Virus record (IMG/VR): IMGVR_UViG_3300015174_000024
Reading direction: 5' to 3' (one strand)
Origin: a virus
Lineage: Duplodnaviria > Heunggongvirae > Uroviricota > Caudoviricetes
DNA length: 15,100 bases
Shown in pieces: positions 9,046 to 13,508 of the stretch; within the stretch, counting starts at the first letter, position 1; the number at the start of each line of letters is the position of its first letter. The translations under genes were made by a program, and so were the position numbers. The notes under the pieces are model-generated. The model was not told the DNA's origin. It worked only from the letters and a program-made list of their open reading frames with translations, and made no database searches.

Positions 9046-10800
9046 TTATAAAAACGCGTCGCACTCGTCTGTTGTTATTGCGTTAGTCTGCGTTACTCCC
9101 TTAACTTTCCGCGTAATATATTCATGTCCGTAAACTTTCGCGGCTGGCTTCATAGCCTTGCCAAAGTCATTTACGTTTAGCGGTTTGCTCCTGCCTGCGT
9201 ACGCCATAAACGCCAGATAGACGCGGTAAAGGCTGTTTCTGGTCGTGTACTTCACTGAATCGCCACCGCCGCCCATCATCAGGCCGCGTGCTTCCTCCAG
9301 AAAATTCAGGAACTGGCAAAACTCAATAACCGGATCCGTCTGTTGCTTTATTGCCAGAGCTTCATCACCGTCACGCTGTTCCAGTAGTAAAGCCCGTGCC
9401 TTCTCAGGGTCGGTAAAGTTCGCCAGCAATCGGCGGATAATGACAGGGATTTCAGCCGCGATCTTTTCCGGTAGCTCCCTGTCTTTTTCGGCCTCACTGA
9501 CGATATTGTCGAAACGGAAAATCACGCGACGACGTGCCACACCTCCGGCCCGTTCGGTGAATATCATCGGGTTATTGTTGGTCGCCAGCACCACCGCCCT
9601 GATTACCGCCGTGAAACGCTTTTCGTATTTCGGGTTAATTTCCACGGGGTCACCGCCCGTGATTTTCTTGATGCCCGTTCCTTCGCCTGTATATTTCGGC
9701 TGGTCAGCCAGGACGATAAGACGACTCCCGACAACCTGCGCACGTCCACCAGCATCATCAAGCGATGTCATTTCAGCGCTTACCGTGTTCTGTTTCCCTG
9801 CCAGAAGGCTGGCTATGTGTGTGAATGTACTTTTACCGCTCCCGCCGTCTCCGGTGGCCTCAATAAACATCTGCCAGTCGTACCGGTTCGCCATAATCAT
9901 GTACAGCGCGGCACATATACGCATCATCTTGCGCGGGTCTTTTCCGGCTGCGTGCTCAAGCCATTTATGAAAGTTTGGCGCGTTATCGCGGATGTTCTCC
10001 CCTGGTGCTGGTGGCGTGTACTCAATGCCGTTGTGCGTGGTGATCCAGTTCTCCGGCGTGTGCGGGGAAAATTCCCCCGTTTTCAGGTCAAGCGCACCAT
10101 TGGCGAACGGCAACAAATCGCCGGACGGCTCGCCCATTGGTTCGGCAATAACTTTTAACGCTTCCACGGCGTTATTGATTACGCGCTTGCTGAAAGTGGC
10201 CCTGTGCTCTGAATAGATCGCCACCATTTCGCGGCTAAGTTCCATTGTGCTGACCGGACACCATACCCCGCCGCGCCATACGTGAACGATTTCACTTTCA
10301 GGATGTACGCAAACGCCATCAAAGCGATCGGCAAGCAGCTGCGCGCGCTCACTGTCCGCCATCTGCGAAAGTTGCGCCTTTTGCTTTACCGGAAGCTCAA
10401 TGACCAGACCATCAGAAAGATTCTGGCGCTCACGGGCCAGATATTCGCGCCAGTTCTCCACCTTCTGACCGTGCATACCATCAGGGTAAAAATTTGCATC
10501 CTGTACGCCTGCCGCCGCCAGCTTCTGACCAATCCCCTTTATCATTACTGGCGCAAGATATCCGGCCCTGAATATGCGCACGGATTCTCTGCCTTCCGGC
10601 ACAATTTGCAGCTTATCCAGTTCGGATAACTGCTGCTCCCCAAGCCACACAGGAGGCTCATTATCTCCGGCCATACGCGCGTCATGTTCCTGCCATTGTT
10701 TTGCGTGTGACCAGGCATCACTACCCGCAAAAATAATGACTTCTGTTTCTTTGTGTTTTATGCCGCGTGACTGCTGTTTTACGTTCGGTGCCAGTTTCAT
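9046..10800 (-). CDS. primase/helicase replication protein (P4-alpha-like, Pri-Rep)
   Basis: 584 aa; central Walker A GDGGSGKST and a D5-like NTPase region, with an N-terminal primase-like domain; ATGA overlap with the upstream small ORF. Confidence 0.85.
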   Translation of the reverse strand: MKLAPNVKQQSRGIKHKETEVIIFAGSDAWSHAKQWQEHDARMAGDNEPPVWLGEQQLSELDKLQIVPEGRESVRIFRAGYLAPVMIKGIGQKLAAAGVQDANFYPDGMHGQKVENWREYLARERQNLSDGLVIELPVKQKAQLSQMADSERAQLLADRFDGVCVHPESEIVHVWRGGVWCPVSTMELSREMVAIYSEHRATFSKRVINNAVEALKVIAEPMGEPSGDLLPFANGALDLKTGEFSPHTPENWITTHNGIEYTPPAPGENIRDNAPNFHKWLEHAAGKDPRKMMRICAALYMIMANRYDWQMFIEATGDGGSGKSTFTHIASLLAGKQNTVSAEMTSLDDAGGRAQVVGSRLIVLADQPKYTGEGTGIKKITGGDPVEINPKYEKRFTAVIRAVVLATNNNPMIFTERAGGVARRRVIFRFDNIVSEAEKDRELPEKIAAEIPVIIRRLLANFTDPEKARALLLEQRDGDEALAIKQQTDPVIEFCQFLNFLEEARGLMMGGGGDSVKYTTRNSLYRVYLAFMAYAGRSKPLNVNDFGKAMKPAAKVYGHEYITRKVKGVTQTNAITTDECDAFL

Positions 10801-11096
10801 TTTTTACCCCTGAATCCGTTAATCATGGTTTTCAGCTTCTGGATGTTTGCCCGTGCCCTGGCGTTGCTGGTGGACACGTTATGCGGCGCGGTCTGTACCA
10901 GAGAAAAATCACGCCGGAACTGATAAACAGGCATCACGCAATCATATTCGTAACCTTCACGGCGGTAGGTTACGCGCCGTTCTTCCACGCCCTTAATCAT
11001 TACCGTGCCGCCGTACTGGTCGCGGTAAATATCGCCGCGCGTAAATTTAGGGTGAGTGTTGCCACTGGCAGTTAAGCCAGAATATTTAAGTTTCAT
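10797..11096 (-). CDS. hypothetical protein, 99 aa
   Basis: GGAGA SD 9 nt upstream of the ATG; translationally coupled to primase. Confidence 0.5.
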   Translation of the reverse strand: MKLKYSGLTASGNTHPKFTRGDIYRDQYGGTVMIKGVEERRVTYRREGYEYDCVMPVYQFRRDFSLVQTAPHNVSTSNARARANIQKLKTMINGFRGKK

Positions 11097-11101
11097 TATT
11101 T

Positions 11102-11335
11102 TTATTCTCCGGTGTGCTGTTCTTTATATCTGTCGTGCAATAGATCTATTTCTTGCAGTTCCATTATTACAGGCTCAAGAAGCGTTATTAATGCCGTGGC
11201 AATTCTTGATTTTTGTTTGTCGCGTTCATTGTCGCCAAGTGTTTCAAGCCATATGCGCAATATTTCCAGCATGTTTTCACTGTGAGAAAGTGCAAGAAAT
11301 GCGCGGTCTATTGTTTCGTGGTAAATATCACGCAT
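11102..11335 (-). CDS. hypothetical protein, 77 aa
   Basis: GAGGA SD; overlaps the upstream gene stop. Confidence 0.5.
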   Translation of the reverse strand: MRDIYHETIDRAFLALSHSENMLEILRIWLETLGDNERDKQKSRIATALITLLEPVIMELQEIDLLHDRYKEQHTGE

Positions 11336-11561
11336 GGCTTACATCCTCAGGAAATTTTCTTCTATAACGCGCCTCTGCCACATATTCCGCATAATCGGCG
11401 GCGATATTCAGTACATCAAGCCCCGTTGATTTATATTCTCTCGTGGAAAGTAAGAAAAAAGCCGCTCTAATAAGTTCTGGCATTGACGAAAGCGCATCAG
11501 CCGCATCATCAGGAACGCCGGAAAATTCCTGTTTCAGGGAATTAAAACGATCATCACGCAT
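11328..11561 (-). CDS. hypothetical protein, 77 aa
   Basis: GGGGGG SD 5 nt upstream; overlaps neighbours. Confidence 0.5.
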   Translation of the reverse strand: MRDDRFNSLKQEFSGVPDDAADALSSMPELIRAAFFLLSTREYKSTGLDVLNIAADYAEYVAEARYRRKFPEDVSHA

Positions 11562-11919
11562 GTTTACCCCCCTGAATGACCTGATAACCGCAACTGGTCA
11601 GCAACTCGATAAATTCCGGCAGTGTGCCGAAACAGCAATCATCACGCAGCCGTTCACAGGATACCTCGACGCCGTTTTCGTAGTGACTCACCATACATCC
11701 GGTAAAATGCAGATCATCATCGTGATGGCTCGTTGACGGCTTAATCAGTCGCGCACGTTCCGCCAGTTCCAGCAATGCTTCAACGCTTCCGGCAATTGCA
11801 CCATCCGGCAGGTGATAATTACGCACTATGCGCCCGTTCTCCACATTGACCAGCAACTGCCCGGTAAATTTCTCATCAAACTGAATGCTGTTAAGGTCAG
11901 AAATTGACAGATTATGCAT
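11554..11919 (-). CDS. hypothetical protein, about 121 aa
   Basis: Start placed at ATG 11919 (MHNLSI...), which has an AGGAGGTG SD and overlaps the upstream stop; the ORF-track start at 11937 lacks one. Confidence 0.5.
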   Translation of the reverse strand: MHNLSISDLNSIQFDEKFTGQLLVNVENGRIVRNYHLPDGAIAGSVEALLELAERARLIKPSTSHHDDDLHFTGCMVSHYENGVEVSCERLRDDCCFGTLPEFIELLTSCGYQVIQGGKHA

Positions 11920-12136
11920 GGTGCACCTCCTGCACATCAGCCATGATAATTTTTCCGGCCTTATCCAGTGCCTGATCGGCTTTTAGCTGCACAAATGCTA
12001 AATAATGGAAGATGCATTCTGATTCTCTGGCTGCGTGTTTATGCGCCCTGTCAGCAATAACAGAAATATCAATAAGCGCGTGCATCAGCGTAGTGAGCGC
12101 GGCGGCGGCTGCGTCCGGTGTGGTTTTATTGCACAT
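11912..12136 (-). CDS. hypothetical protein, about 74 aa
   Basis: Start placed at ATG 12136 (MCNKTT...) with an AGGAGG SD; the ORF-track start at 12178 is further upstream. Confidence 0.5.
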   Translation of the reverse strand: MCNKTTPDAAAAALTTLMHALIDISVIADRAHKHAARESECIFHYLAFVQLKADQALDKAGKIIMADVQEVHHA

Positions 12137-12326
12137 GGCACACCTCCTGACGAATACGGGCGGCGAATACAGCAACACAACCGGACGGGCAACGGCTACG
12201 CGCTTCGCGTTCCGTCCAGGCGGTTACGTGGATGATTTGAGATTCTCCGGCACTTAGTGCCAGAAAACGCCACACAAAGGCAGTTTGTGTGTGCGCCAGA
12301 CGTGGGGTATGCTGTGTTCCAGCCAT
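12126..12326 (-). CDS. hypothetical protein, 66 aa, first gene of the leftward operon
   Basis: ATG 12326 preceded by AGGAG 8 nt upstream; it is the in-frame C-terminal part of an implausible 378-aa ORF-track call. Confidence 0.45.
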   Translation of the reverse strand: MAGTQHTPRLAHTQTAFVWRFLALSAGESQIIHVTAWTEREARSRCPSGCVAVFAARIRQEVCHVQ

Positions 12327-12435
12327 AATCGTTACTCCTGTTAACGGTTTGGTTAGACGCCCCGCTACTGCCGCAAACAGTTCGGGGCGTTGTCGTTTAC
12401 ATCCTCTTACTGAGGTGTGATTTAAATTAAATTCA

Positions 12436-12491
12436 ACTGAATCACAGGTCAAGTGTTTTTTGTGATTCTTTTTTGTGTATACTGAATCACA
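12436..12491. promoter_or_regulatory. divergent promoter/operator region: GAATCACA at 12439-12446 and 12484-12491, inverted copy TGTGATTC at 12461-12468
   Basis: Read directly. Inverted pair has a 14-bp spacer and overlaps a minus-strand TTGACC -35-like hexamer (revcomp of 12450-12455); the third copy abuts a plus-strand TATACT -10-like hexamer (12478-12483). Confidence 0.5.
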
Positions 12492-12513
12492 TCTTTTGTT
12501 TAGGAGAATGCAC

Positions 12514-12819
12514 ATGGCAAAAAACACTATCAACGACAAATCAAAACAGATTTCAATTCGTATCCCACATGATGCTTTTGATGGCATGGAATCCGTAAAA
12601 CTGGACGGCGAAAGCAACGCCGGATTCATAGTAACCGCCATGCGCGGGGAGATCGCCCGCCGCCAGGCAGAAGGAAGCAGTGAAAATCCTCTGATTTCTT
12701 CTCTCGATGCATTGGCGCAAGTGGAAAAAATTGGTATTAAAGCTACGGAAGAACTCGGGCAACTTATCGCCATCGCTCGTGAAGAACTACAGCGCCGCAA
12801 GGCCAAAGAATCAGAATAA
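12514..12819 (+). CDS. ribbon-helix-helix-like DNA-binding protein (candidate island repressor)
   Basis: AGGAG at 12502-12506, ATG at 12514; N-terminus KQISIRIPHDAFDGME...GFIVTAMRGEIARRQ fits a beta-strand/helix/helix pattern; divergently placed from the replication operon. Confidence 0.5.
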   Translation: MAKNTINDKSKQISIRIPHDAFDGMESVKLDGESNAGFIVTAMRGEIARRQAEGSSENPLISSLDALAQVEKIGIKATEELGQLIAIAREELQRRKAKESE

Positions 12820-12876
12820 TCACTATCAGCGCCGTGGTGTGAGGTATTACGGCGCATTGCTATGCAGGACAACACA

Positions 12877-13050
12877 ATGACCGATAAAGAATTGACCAAA
12901 ACATTATCACCGGCACGGAAAAGACGGCGCAGAAAGATAGAGCATGAATCAGAAAGATTCGCGCCATGTGCTTTTGCCCTTGAGCAATTCCTTAAAGAAT
13001 ACAGGGAAAAGCGCTCATTGCAGGTATGGCAACGAACTGAACCAGACTGA
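12877..13050 (+). CDS. small basic hypothetical protein (about 58 aa)
   Basis: Weak SD; Arg/Lys-rich (RKRRRRK); follows the RHH gene on the same strand. An alternative ATG lies at 12862. Confidence 0.3.
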   Translation: MTDKELTKTLSPARKRRRRKIEHESERFAPCAFALEQFLKEYREKRSLQVWQRTEPD

Positions 13051-13144
13051 TTGCATTGCCCACCAGCCTGATAGCGGCTATCATCCCCGTGCTTATGTTT
13101 GGGATCACACACACAAACGGCGCAGCGGGTTATCTGTTCAGAAA

Positions 13145-13174
13145 GGCGGCTACATTTCGGGGCCGCTTTTTTTA
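13145..13174 (+). terminator. rho-independent terminator ending the short rightward transcription unit
   Basis: GGCGGC ... GCCGC stem followed by TTTTTTT on the plus strand. Confidence 0.45.
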
Positions 13175-13319
13175 TGCCTGAAAAACCCCAATTTTGTGGT
13201 TTTCCAGTCTCACCAGGGCGAACGAATCCCCGCCCACGTTCTGGCGTATATTCAATCTTCATGGTTATAGCTCTGTGTTCAGATGATTGATGTGTGGCGG
13301 CTGCGTGCCGCCAGCGTGA

Positions 13320-13508
13320 TTAATGAACTGCCTTGCAGCTATCCTTCCAGGCCAGAACCTCGGATAAAGACCAGCCAACGGAACGACCGCTAAGTTTACG
13401 ACGTGATGGGAATTGTCCGGCCTTTTCCAGGCGGTAGCGGCATGAGCGGCTAAGGCCTGTTAGCTTTTCGCATTCTTTTTCACGTATAAACCGATCAGTG
13501 CTTAACAC
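13320..13508 (-). CDS. alpA: AlpA-family (Xis/Vis-like) regulator/excisionase
   Basis: 62 aa; LTGLSRS..YRL..G.FP....L....VGW...EV..W pattern; GTG start with AAGGGGG SD; located next to int. Confidence 0.8.
   Translation of the reverse strand: MLSTDRFIREKECEKLTGLSRSCRYRLEKAGQFPSRRKLSGRSVGWSLSEVLAWKDSCKAVH

What the first reader, a model, noticed from the sequence alone, without database searches (positions are those of the whole stretch)
10797..12326. Six tightly coupled small ORFs of unknown function upstream of primase
Six 66-121 aa ORFs each have a good Shine-Dalgarno and overlap their neighbour's stop, forming one operon from the operator region into the primase gene. None matches a family I can name from sequence. 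In P4 and PICIs the equivalent position holds helper-manipulation factors (derepression of helper prophage, interference with helper packaging or capsid size) and sometimes anti-phage cargo. These are the most likely place for undescribed helper-hijacking or defence functions in this element.
Basis: inference. Interest (0 to 1): 0.5.

Follow-up and report, generated by a model that had tools for sequence, protein, structure and literature searches.

The report
Early operon of an E. coli phage satellite
The six small overlapping genes are real and form the front half of the early operon of a common E. coli capsid-forming phage satellite; two belong to named families (a cell-division inhibitor and the virulence regulator RgdR) and four remain uncharacterised.

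Summary
Six minus-strand ORFs of 66, 74, 121, 77, 77 and 99 aa, each with a Shine-Dalgarno, run from a divergent operator region into a D5-type primase-helicase. Five of six junctions overlap.

The window is an E. coli capsid-forming PICI integrated in tqsA. The claim that no ORF matches a nameable family is wrong for two:
- ORF1 is an Icd-like division inhibitor. P1 Icd binds FtsZ, and P4 has the same first gene.
- ORF6 is RgdR (DUF4222), a published regulator of LEE type III secretion and motility.

The other four:
- ORF2 and ORF4 are the two halves of a widespread 154-aa protein, split here by a block carrying ORF3.
- ORF3 is a tandem beta-beta-alpha module that elsewhere is fused to an AntA antirepressor domain.
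- ORF5 is a narrow family that sits just before rgdR or rep.

Across 80 related loci the Icd, ORF5, RgdR and Rep positions are kept and the middle is a swappable cassette. dN/dS is 0.26-0.49.

No ORF matches a catalogued defence system. However, a sister allele of this operon in ECOR61 was reported to arrest growth when a phage accessory protein is expressed.

Verdict: real, common, partly known. The helper-hijacking or defence idea is plausible but unproven.

The parts
12411..12491 (.). Divergent promoter/operator region. It holds two inverted repeats built on TGTGATT / AATCACA. Read by eye on the minus strand there is a -35 TTGACC (12452-12447), a 17-nt spacer and a weak -10 TAATTT (12429-12424).
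   Evidence: the repeat finder gives I3 (12411-12422 / 12440-12451), I6 (12461-12468 / 12484-12491) and direct repeat D1. The consensus scan did not list this promoter because only 3 of 6 positions of the -10 match. The promoter assignment is inference.
12357..12390 (-). Stable hairpin in the 5' leader just upstream of the ORF1 Shine-Dalgarno. No U-tract follows it and its role is unknown.
   Evidence: Inverted repeat I4, 8/8 complementary. RNA fold of 12315-12415 gives -32.4 kcal/mol, z = -2.56. No Rfam family matches anywhere in the window.
12126..12326 (-). ORF1, 66 aa: Icd-like cell-division inhibitor and first gene of the operon.
   Evidence: NCBIfam NF033153 at 64.7 bits against a cut-off of 25. 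34% identical to P1 Icd across its functional core (alignment A3). hhalign probability 95.8%, E 7.7e-9. 87.5% identical to ECs1577 of Sakai Sp7. dN/dS 0.32.
11912..12136 (-). ORF2, 74 aa, helical: a divergent allele of the N-terminal half of the 154-aa PHROG 2512 protein.
   Evidence: phrog_5146 at 1e-44 and phrog_2512 positions 1-74. Fused in frame with the ORF4 part in 11 unique alleles and in most of the 120 proteins listed, of 493 clusters found. This ORF2 allele (91-100% identity) occurs only in loci that also carry ORF3. dN/dS 0.47.
11554..11919 (-). ORF3, 121 aa: an optional insert made of a tandem duplication of a ~45-aa beta-hairpin plus helix unit.
   Evidence: phrog_340 and phrog_2512. 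Predicted secondary structure is E21-27 E30-37 H46-56 then E76-81 E84-90 H100-109, but the model is poor (pLDDT 51). Internal repeat HSP at E 1e-3. Homologues show deletions of whole units. The second unit is fused to an AntA domain in P0053. Present in 13 of 72 related loci that span Icd to RgdR and in 347 of 5426 complete E. coli genomes. The DNA alignment shows a ~350-nt insertion.
11328..11561 (-). ORF4, 77 aa, helical: the C-terminal half of the PHROG 2512 protein.
   Evidence: phrog_2512 positions 78-154 at 1.8e-49. 100% identical to residues 78-154 of fused 154-aa proteins. dN/dS 0.33.
11102..11335 (-). ORF5, 77 aa, helical: a narrow family that sits immediately before rgdR or rep in E. 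coli and Klebsiella satellites.
   Evidence: phrog_2196 at 8e-42. ECs1580 of Sakai and the 72-aa gene upstream of the primase in LR881103 hit the same PHROG. Only 9 relatives among 1.84 billion representative proteins. dN/dS 0.35.
10797..11096 (-). ORF6, 99 aa: RgdR (DUF4222). Its stop overlaps the primase start (ATGA).
9046..10800 (-). Pri-Rep gene, 584 aa: the last gene of the coupled run.
   Evidence: Pfam D5_N, DUF5906 and Pox_D5. The N-terminal ~125-163 aa are shared with DUF927-type and AAA_25 RepA-type Rep proteins that follow rgdR in other PICIs.
12514..12819 (+). Divergently transcribed 101-aa gene, called YlcI/YnfO family by PGAP. It is a candidate regulator acting at the shared operator.
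   Evidence: PGAP name. phrog_6522. No Pfam hit. The regulatory role is inference from its position next to the inverted repeats.
13320..13508 (-). alpA, 62 aa: the PICI master activator family.
   Evidence: Pfam Phage_AlpA at 63.3 bits. The role of AlpA in E. coli PICIs comes from PMC6092414.

Best explanation
The six ORFs are the promoter-proximal half of the early (replication) operon of an E. coli capsid-forming phage-inducible chromosomal island.

**Expression.** They are transcribed from a weak, operator-flanked promoter at about 12420-12450. They are translated as a chain by overlap coupling, ending in the Pri-Rep gene. The promoter and the coupling are inferred from sequence. In characterised E. 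coli PICIs this operon is silent until a helper phage switches on alpA, whose product activates it. That is established for EcCICFT073 and inferred here.

**Fixed frame and variable middle.** The fixed frame is:
- ORF1, an Icd-type inhibitor of cell division. By homology to P1 Icd it most likely binds FtsZ, stopping septation while the island replicates and is packaged.
- ORF5, a small helical protein of unknown role.
- ORF6, RgdR, a small basic SH3/Tudor-like protein. It binds DNA and is known to re-programme host genes (LEE up, motility down).
- Rep.

The slot between Icd and ORF5 holds alternative cassettes. Here it holds a two-domain helical protein split into ORF2 and ORF4 by a block carrying ORF3. 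ORF3 is a duplicated beta-beta-alpha module of the kind found fused to an AntA antirepressor domain elsewhere.

**Most likely role of the cassette (inference).** It interacts with phage or host proteins and tunes when and how strongly the Icd/Rep programme harms the cell or the incoming phage.
For: **Satellite identity.** int, alpA, SSB, PerC, capsid, protease, portal, connectors, HNH, TerS and TerL in about 15 kb inserted in tqsA. This is the same plan as Sakai Sp7/CP-933C, the published cf-PICI prototype (10.1101/2022.09.08.507074).

**Coupling and coding.** Overlaps and Shine-Dalgarno sites. dN/dS 0.26-0.49.

**Icd.** NCBIfam hit, alignment to P1 Icd, hhalign 95.8%. P1 Icd binds FtsZ through its core 12-51 (PMC11897509). 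P1 icd overlaps ant1 and is needed for its expression. P4 has an Icd-like first ORF whose 3' junction sequence is nearly the same.

**RgdR.**

**Frame versus cassette.** tblastn table of 80 loci and architecture counts. Sakai carries a different middle pair, ECs1578/1579, but keeps the Icd, ORF5-like, RgdR and Rep positions.

**Split gene.**

**AlpA control.** PMC6092414 and PMC11773190.

**Harmful output of a sister operon.**
Against: - Nothing here was measured in cells. Promoter, AlpA dependence, coupling and FtsZ targeting are all by analogy.
- The consensus scan did not call the promoter.
- alpA is separated from the operon by a divergently transcribed gene pair, unlike the simplest PICI map. 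Control may therefore rest on the YlcI/YnfO-like protein instead.
- RgdR affects host phenotypes in uninduced lysogens (PMC3378721), so at least part of the operon is expressed without induction. That does not fit a purely induction-locked operon.
- ORF2-5 have no detectable homologue of known function. The ORF3 structure model is unreliable.
- The RgdR fold match is to a generic small barrel.
Confidence: 0.75

Rival explanations
1. The block is a dedicated phage-sensing abortive-infection or superinfection-exclusion module. The variable middle genes (ORF2-4) recognise a phage protein and release Icd-mediated growth arrest. The cell stops before the phage completes, independently of satellite transfer.
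For: - In ECOR61 a T7-group accessory gene (orf24) triggers growth arrest. Suppressor transposons fall in an Icd-like gene and the two small genes after it. All six linked genes including a primase are needed to rebuild the effect, and removing the Icd-like gene abolishes it.
- The lengths and overlaps of those three genes equal ECs1577-1579 of the Sakai cf-PICI.
- The middle cassette is swappable and evolves fastest, as expected for a specificity determinant.
Against: - No PADLOC hit.
- The ECOR61 middle genes are probably the ECs1578/1579 type, which is unrelated to ORF2-4.
- Transposon hits upstream of rep can be polar.
- Growth arrest may simply be island induction. AlpA-driven uncontrolled replication alone reduces viability (PMC6092414).
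- The reconstituted effect was described as muted.
Confidence: 0.2
2. One or more of ORF2-4 is an antirepressor-type helper manipulator, comparable to P4 epsilon or P1 Ant. It would bind a helper prophage repressor or another helper regulator, so the satellite can wake or re-programme its helper.
For: - In both P1 and P4 the gene coupled to icd is an antirepressor: ant1 in P1 and epsilon in P4.
- The Icd 3' junction, with its built-in Shine-Dalgarno, is nearly identical between the window and P4.
- The second ORF3 unit is the C-terminal part of an AntA-domain protein that sits at the same operon position in another PICI.
Against: - No sequence relation of ORF2-6 to epsilon, orf151 or cnr.
- ORF3 itself lacks the AntA domain.
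- The AntA fusion was seen on one contig only.
- Published cf-PICIs and E. coli PICIs are induced by their helpers rather than inducing them.
Confidence: 0.12
3. ORF5 and RgdR, and perhaps ORF2/4, are replication accessory factors of the island. Examples would be an origin-binding or copy-number partner of Rep, comparable in role to P4 Cnr. The reported host effects of RgdR would then be side effects of a DNA-binding protein.
For: - rgdR is always directly upstream of rep and overlaps it. This holds across three unrelated Rep helicase types that share only the N-terminal 125-163 residues.
- ORF5-family genes take the same pre-rep position in a Klebsiella element that lacks rgdR.
- RgdR bound DNA without sequence specificity in EMSA (PMC3378721).
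- P4 has cnr at this position.
Against: - No homology to Cnr.
- No replication phenotype has been reported for these genes.
- RgdR phenotypes are specific enough to depend on single residues, R20 and K35.
Confidence: 0.2
4. Some of the small ORFs are not genes, only open frames in a leader region.
For: They are short, and four have no homologue of known function. ORF3 gave a poor structure model.
Against: - Conserved order, purifying selection, in-frame indels, strong Shine-Dalgarno sites and PHROG families built from many phage and satellite genomes.
- The ORF2 and ORF4 parts exist as one 154-aa protein in most of the 120 proteins listed, of 493 clusters found.
Confidence: 0.02

Closest known systems
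Early operon of E. coli PICIs: EcCIEDL933 / Sakai Sp7 / CP-933C (OI-51), EcCICFT073, EcCIED1a
   Same: The plan is the same: int, alpA, then Icd-like, small ORFs, RgdR and Pri-Rep, then SSB, PerC and a capsid/terminase module. ORF1 is 87.5% identical to ECs1577 and ORF6 is 80% identical to ECs1581. ORF5 is distantly related to ECs1580. The Rep N-terminus is 81% identical. The integration site (ydgD to ydgG/tqsA) is the one reported for the ED1a element.
   Different: The middle cassette differs. The window has ORF2, ORF3 and ORF4, whereas Sakai has ECs1578 and ECs1579, which are unrelated. The Rep helicase type differs: D5-like here, DUF927 in Sakai. Unlike the ED1a protein, the window's RgdR keeps R20 of the RGD motif.
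Satellite phage P4 left operon (Icd-like ORF, epsilon, orf151, cnr, alpha)
   Same: An AlpA/Vis-type gene lies upstream. An Icd-like domain is the first coding unit (73.9 bits). The small ORFs overlap by 8 nt. The Icd 3' end carries GGAGGTGT(G/C)CC before the next start, as in the window. A primase-helicase is the last gene.
   Different: No homology of ORF2-6 to epsilon, orf151 or cnr. No C4/CI-type RNA was detected by Rfam. P4 has no capsid genes, and it derepresses P2, whereas PICIs are induced by their helpers.
Phage P1 immI operon (c4, icd, ant1/ant2)
   Same: It contains a homologous Icd: 34% identity covering the FtsZ-binding core, hhalign 95.8%. icd is a short leading ORF translationally coupled to the next gene through a 4-nt overlap, and is annotated as required for ant expression.
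   Different: In P1 the downstream gene is a KilAC-domain antirepressor, which is absent here. Control in P1 is by C4 antisense RNA, which was not found here.
ECOR61 'prophage-encoded superinfection exclusion system' (Silas et al., bioRxiv 10.1101/2023.04.06.535777)
   Same: [quoted passage not shown] Gene sizes (61 and 63 aa) and overlaps (8 nt and 1 nt) match ECs1578/1579 of the Sakai cf-PICI. It therefore appears to be the same kind of PICI early operon.
   Different: The two genes after Icd are probably of the ECs1578/1579 type, not ORF2-4. Its trigger (orf24) has not been tested on this allele.

Membership tests
Icd (P1 Icd / NCBIfam NF033153 Icd-like) | Sequence match to the Icd-like domain above the curated cut-off | tested here: met
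   64.7 bits against a cut-off of 25, residues 17-60 covering the full 48-position profile.
Icd (P1 Icd / NCBIfam NF033153 Icd-like) | Homology to P1 Icd across its minimal active core (residues 12-51) | tested here: met
   Alignment A3: 34% identity, with the equivalents of P1 R15, E32, A48 and R49 conserved. hhalign probability 95.8%, E 7.7e-9, aligning P1 residues 8-51. The core is defined in PMC11897509.
Icd (P1 Icd / NCBIfam NF033153 Icd-like) | Short leading ORF translationally coupled to the next gene of an immunity or early operon | tested here: met
   ORF1 is the first ORF after the operator. It overlaps ORF2 by 11 nt, with AGGAGG inside its own 3' end. P1 and P4 are arranged likewise.
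Icd (P1 Icd / NCBIfam NF033153 Icd-like) | Blocks Z-ring formation by binding FtsZ | not testable with these tools
   Needs expression, microscopy and two-hybrid or pulldown assays.
RgdR / DUF4222 | Pfam PF13973 domain above the gathering score | tested here: met
   85.7 bits against a cut-off of 27, residues 16-68.
RgdR / DUF4222 | 99-aa protein orthologous to ECs1581 with the conserved core 20-68 | tested here: met
   80% identity over 99 aa. The core differs only at H45R (sequences).
RgdR / DUF4222 | RGD motif (R20) and K35, the residues shown to matter for T3S activation | tested here: met
   The window sequence reads ...KFTRGDIYRDQYGGTVMIKG..., which places R20, G21, D22 and K35. The criteria are from PMC3378721.
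RgdR / DUF4222 | Activates the LEE1 promoter and represses motility | not testable with these tools
   Needs reporter and motility assays. The host of this window may lack LEE.
Capsid-forming PICI | About 15 kb island with int, alpA and rep plus its own capsid, portal, connector and terminase genes, and no tail or lysis genes | tested here: met
   Annotation of the 99.4%-identical element in NZ_CP053251.2. AlpA Pfam hit. Rep domains. The family is defined in 10.1101/2022.09.08.507074.
Capsid-forming PICI | Induced and mobilised by a helper phage through alpA | not testable with these tools
   Shown for EcCIEDL933 and EcCICFT073 in the literature, not for this element.
P4-like satellite left operon | Homologues of epsilon, orf151 and cnr between icd and the primase | tested here: not met
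   hhalign of each ORF family against the P4 proteins gives a probability of 5.5% or less. They also fall in different PHROGs.
P4-like satellite left operon | CI/C4-type immunity RNA in the leader | tested here: not met
   No Rfam match in the window at E up to 1. A leader hairpin exists but is unassigned.
Catalogued anti-phage defence systems (PADLOC-DB 2.0) | Match of any of the six proteins to a defence-system model | tested here: not met
   0 families for all six at E up to 1.
AntA/KilAC antirepressors | AntA (PF08346) or ANT/KilAC (PF03374) domain | tested here: not met
   No Pfam hit for ORF2-5. Only the second ORF3 unit is shared with an AntA-domain protein, P0053.

The most novel reading that the evidence does not exclude
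The slot between icd and the ORF5/rgdR/rep core may be a swappable phage-sensing cassette. Its products (here the split ORF2/ORF4 protein and the inserted ORF3 module) would recognise particular phage proteins and gate Icd-driven division arrest and runaway replication. If so, the early operon of E. coli PICIs would double as a widespread, uncatalogued, allele-specific abortive-infection system. The poly-G tract that fuses or splits ORF2/ORF4 in sister alleles would act as a phase switch on it.
Probability: 0.15. Interest if true: 0.65.

Novelty: new member of a known kind. Interest (0 to 1): 0.35.

Why it matters
This operon sits in roughly three of every ten complete E. coli genomes. It contains a likely FtsZ inhibitor and a regulator that changes type III secretion and motility in EHEC. 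Four of its genes have never been studied.

The work here adds three things:
- It places the genes in a fixed frame (Icd, ORF5, RgdR, Rep) with a variable middle slot.
- It shows that ORF2 and ORF4 are one protein split by an insertion.
- It links the operon to a published phage-triggered growth-arrest phenotype in ECOR61 that was described as a new prophage system, without naming it a satellite.

If the middle cassette sets the phage specificity of that arrest, common E. coli satellites would carry a defence function missed by current catalogues. If not, the block is simply the ordinary early operon of a well-known satellite family.

Tried and rejected
**Searches that found nothing useful**
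- PDB sequence searches for all six proteins and for a profile of the fused ORF2-ORF4 family returned only chance-level hits.
- tblastn of the six proteins, and of ORF1 alone, against 50,697 phage records found only one record, LR881103, which is itself a satellite-like element.
- BLASTP of ORF1 against the P4 'cI' ORF found nothing, although the HMM shows both carry the Icd-like domain.
- The Rfam scan of the whole window gave no hit, so a P4/P1-type immunity RNA is not supported.
- The genome-contig scan with RgdR returned only two loci.
- Deep phmmer with ORF5 returned nine proteins and no fusions to known domains.

**Structure work**
- AlphaFold2 of ORF3 with 26 sequences gave pLDDT 51. 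The model is too poor for a fold search, so only its secondary-structure pattern was used.
- The afdb50 library was unavailable.

**Ideas considered and dropped**
- A P1 Ant-type link for ORF3 through the AntA domain. P1 Ant1 carries KilAC, not AntA.
- The 378-aa frame that continues upstream of ORF1, antisense to the YlcI-like gene. It is annotated as ECs1576 in Sakai and appears as 'N-terminally extended Icd-like' in PGAP records. I treat it as an annotation artefact because the strong Shine-Dalgarno sits at the 66-aa start.
- An internal promoter-like site inside ORF5 (11191-11163). It is no better than what shuffled sequence gives.

Full report
**1. What is in the sequence**

| ORF | Coordinates | Length |
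|---|---|---|
| ORF1 | 12126-12326 | 66 aa |
| ORF2 | 11912-12136 | 74 aa |
| ORF3 | 11554-11919 | 121 aa |
| ORF4 | 11328-11561 | 77 aa |
| ORF5 | 11102-11335 | 77 aa |
| ORF6 | 10797-11096 | 99 aa |

A 584-aa replication gene follows at 9046-10800. Each start has a purine-rich Shine-Dalgarno. The junctions overlap by 11, 8, 8 and 8 nt. There is then a 5-nt gap before ORF6 and an ATGA overlap into the replication gene.

ORF2, ORF3 and ORF4 all end in His-Ala-stop. ORF4 and ORF5 both begin ATG CGT GAT, so the junctions are near-repeats of one another.

**2. Where the window comes from**

The whole window matches E. coli chromosomes at 99.4% identity. It is a ~15-kb island inserted in tqsA (ydgG). 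Its genes are integrase, alpA, the block studied here, SSB, PerC, major capsid protein, prohead protease, portal, head-closure and connector proteins, HNH, TerS and TerL.

That is the plan of a capsid-forming PICI. The prototype is EcCIEDL933, also known as CP-933C, OI-51 or Sakai Sp7. The 1.7-kb block matches 1563 of 5426 complete E. coli genomes.

**3. Are they genes?**

- PGAP calls the same six genes.
- All six fall in PHROG families.
- I used 80 IMG/VR loci fetched with ORF6 as anchor. Pairwise dN/dS among alleles is 0.32, 0.47, 0.33, 0.35 and 0.26 for ORF1, 2, 4, 5 and 6.
- ORF3 has too few DNA alleles in that set. Its protein relatives diverge to 73% identity with only in-frame indels.

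**4. ORF1 is Icd-like**

ORF1 passes the NCBIfam Icd-like model. It aligns with P1 Icd at 34% identity over the part shown to be sufficient for activity, residues 12-51. The residues predicted to contact FtsZ (R15, E32, A48, R49) are conserved. Profile comparison gives 95.8% probability.

P1 Icd binds FtsZ and blocks the Z ring (PMC11897509). In P1, icd overlaps ant1 and is annotated as required for its expression.

P4 carries the same domain in the ORF historically labelled 'cI gene product'. This explains the 'transcriptional repressor' label on two PHROGs that ORF1 hits. The P4 icd-to-epsilon junction, GGAGGTGTCCC GTG CGT AAT AA, is almost the same as the window's ORF1-to-ORF2 junction, GGAGGTGTGCC ATG TGC AAT AA.

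**5. ORF6 is RgdR**

ORF6 carries DUF4222. It is 80% identical to ECs1581, and the conserved core 20-68 differs at one residue.

Flockhart et al. showed that this protein activates LEE1 and type III secretion, represses motility and binds DNA non-specifically. R20 of an RGD motif and K35 matter for activity (PMC3378721). The window's protein has both residues.

Fillol-Salom et al. state that RgdR is encoded by all analysed E. coli PICIs.

**6. ORF2 and ORF4 are one protein split in two**

PHROG 2512 (154 positions) matches ORF2 with its first half and ORF4 with its second half. In related loci without ORF3 the two parts are one 150-155-aa ORF. This fused form accounts for most of the 120 proteins listed, out of 493 protein clusters found. 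All the named ones are from Escherichia and none has a Pfam domain.

The DNA alignment shows a ~350-nt insertion in the window at the linker ...IADCENGGV|MRDD.... The insertion carries ORF3 with its own Shine-Dalgarno. The window-type ORF2 allele occurs only together with ORF3. The mosaic block therefore runs from the middle of ORF2 to the end of ORF3.

**7. ORF3**

ORF3 relatives are confined to Escherichia and Salmonella and differ by loss of whole segments. The structure model is poor, but it predicts hairpin-helix twice. The two halves align with each other at E 1e-3, so ORF3 is a tandem duplication.

In one E. coli contig the second unit forms the C-terminus of a 196-aa protein whose N-terminus is an AntA/AntB antirepressor domain. 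That gene sits at the head of a PICI operon, followed by a single-unit ORF3-like gene, a DUF4222 gene and a DUF927 Rep. This is a hint, not proof, of an antirepressor-type partner-binding role.

ORF3 is present in 13 of 72 related loci that span Icd to RgdR and in 347 of 5426 complete genomes.

**8. ORF5**

Only nine relatives were found among 1.84 billion representative proteins. Even so, the family (PHROG 2196/5796) holds the position just before rgdR in Sakai (ECs1580). It also sits just before the primase in the Klebsiella-derived element LR881103.

**9. Architecture across loci**

Icd is always first, ORF5 and RgdR are last, and Rep follows. The stretch between is variable. The commonest form is Icd, ORF2/4, ORF5, RgdR. 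ORF3 or another small ORF is optional, and Sakai has an unrelated pair, ECs1578/1579. Alleles of neighbouring genes recombine freely.

Rep comes in three helicase types: D5-like, DUF927 and AAA_25 RepA. They share only the N-terminal 125-163 residues.

**10. Regulation**

Upstream of ORF1 lies a 187-bp divergent region with two inverted repeats on the motif TGTGATT/AATCACA. One repeat brackets a candidate minus-strand promoter, TTGACC-17-TAATTT. The other brackets the extended -10 of the divergent YlcI/YnfO-like gene (read by eye, not called by the scan).

The leader has a stable hairpin. No Rfam family matches.

In studied E. coli PICIs, AlpA activates this operon after a helper phage switches alpA on. 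I infer the same here.

**11. Function**

*Shown by homology:* a division inhibitor, a DNA-binding host regulator and a replication protein are co-translated.

*Published for a sister operon:* in ECOR61, a phage accessory protein triggers growth arrest. The arrest needs an Icd-like gene, and suppressor insertions also fall in the next two small genes. Six linked genes including a primase are required. The sizes and overlaps of those genes equal ECs1577-1579. I therefore infer that the reported 'prophage system' is a PICI early operon of the Sakai type. I could not check the sequence.

*Inferred:* the variable cassette interacts with phage or host proteins and modulates this programme.

The rival readings are a dedicated abortive-infection sensor, an antirepressor and a replication accessory role. 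They are listed with tests in the fields above. None of the six proteins hits a catalogued defence model, and none is related to P4 epsilon, orf151 or cnr.

**12. Verdict**

The feature is real and is a new allele of a known kind of operon. Four remain of unknown function. The helper-manipulation or defence idea is reasonable but unproven. Interest is moderate.

Noticed in passing
L023:3180-3200 and equivalent sites in L003, L012, L019, L028; window 11561-11575: In loci without ORF3, a poly-G tract lies just 5' of the ATG CGT GAT GA that starts the ORF4 part. Its length varies among loci: G7 in 14 loci and G10 in 2 (ORF2 and ORF4 fused in frame), G8 in 19, G9 in 12 and G11 in 1 (split). The tract also serves as the Shine-Dalgarno of the ORF4 part. 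This could be slipped-strand phase variation or homopolymer assembly error. The window has a stable G6-TAAAC.
   Followed up: partly
window 12411-12491: Two inverted repeats on TGTGATT/AATCACA and an 11-nt direct repeat ACTGAATCACA sit over both divergent promoters. These look like operators for a shared regulator. The adjacent 101-aa YlcI/YnfO-like gene (12514-12819, + strand) is the obvious candidate.
   Followed up: partly
window 12357-12390: An 8-bp perfect stem with a structured 18-nt loop lies in the mRNA leader directly before the ORF1 ribosome-binding site. The fold z-score is -2.56, there is no U-tract and no Rfam family matches.
   Followed up: partly
window 12126-13262 (minus strand): The ORF1 frame stays open for 378 codons upstream, antisense to the YlcI-like gene. 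The same frame is annotated as ECs1576 (247 aa) in Sakai and yields 'N-terminally extended Icd-like' proteins in PGAP records. The ECOR61 paper also mentions such an extension. It is probably an annotation artefact.
   Followed up: partly
window 10300-10800; L089:4601-5090; L001:12630-13004: The first 125-163 residues of Rep are conserved (61-81% identity) across three otherwise unrelated Rep proteins: D5-like, DUF927 and AAA_25 RepA. This part always lies next to rgdR, as if RgdR and the Rep N-terminal domain travel as one module. No Pfam domain covers this part.
   Followed up: partly
L087:7001-8079: Another E. coli PICI, next to the abg genes, starts its operon with an AntA-domain protein carrying an ORF3-type C-terminal unit. 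Next come a 66-aa single ORF3-like unit, a DUF4222 gene and a DUF927 Rep. ProQ/FinO-like and PerC genes lie downstream.
   Followed up: partly
L006 (LR881103.1, 'Escherichia phage vB_KppS-Ant'): This 16.5-kb record deposited as a phage has the capsid-forming satellite plan: int, regulator, an Icd-like domain at the end of a 324-aa ORF, two small ORFs, primase, capsid, portal, connectors and terminase. It also has a gene annotated as tape measure protein.
   Followed up: no
window 11163-11191 (minus strand): A promoter-like site (TTAATA-17-AATAAT with an upstream TG) lies inside the AT-rich ORF5 (40% GC), about 70 nt before rgdR. It might explain why RgdR acts in uninduced lysogens. However, the number of such sites in the region is no higher than in shuffled sequence.
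   Followed up: no
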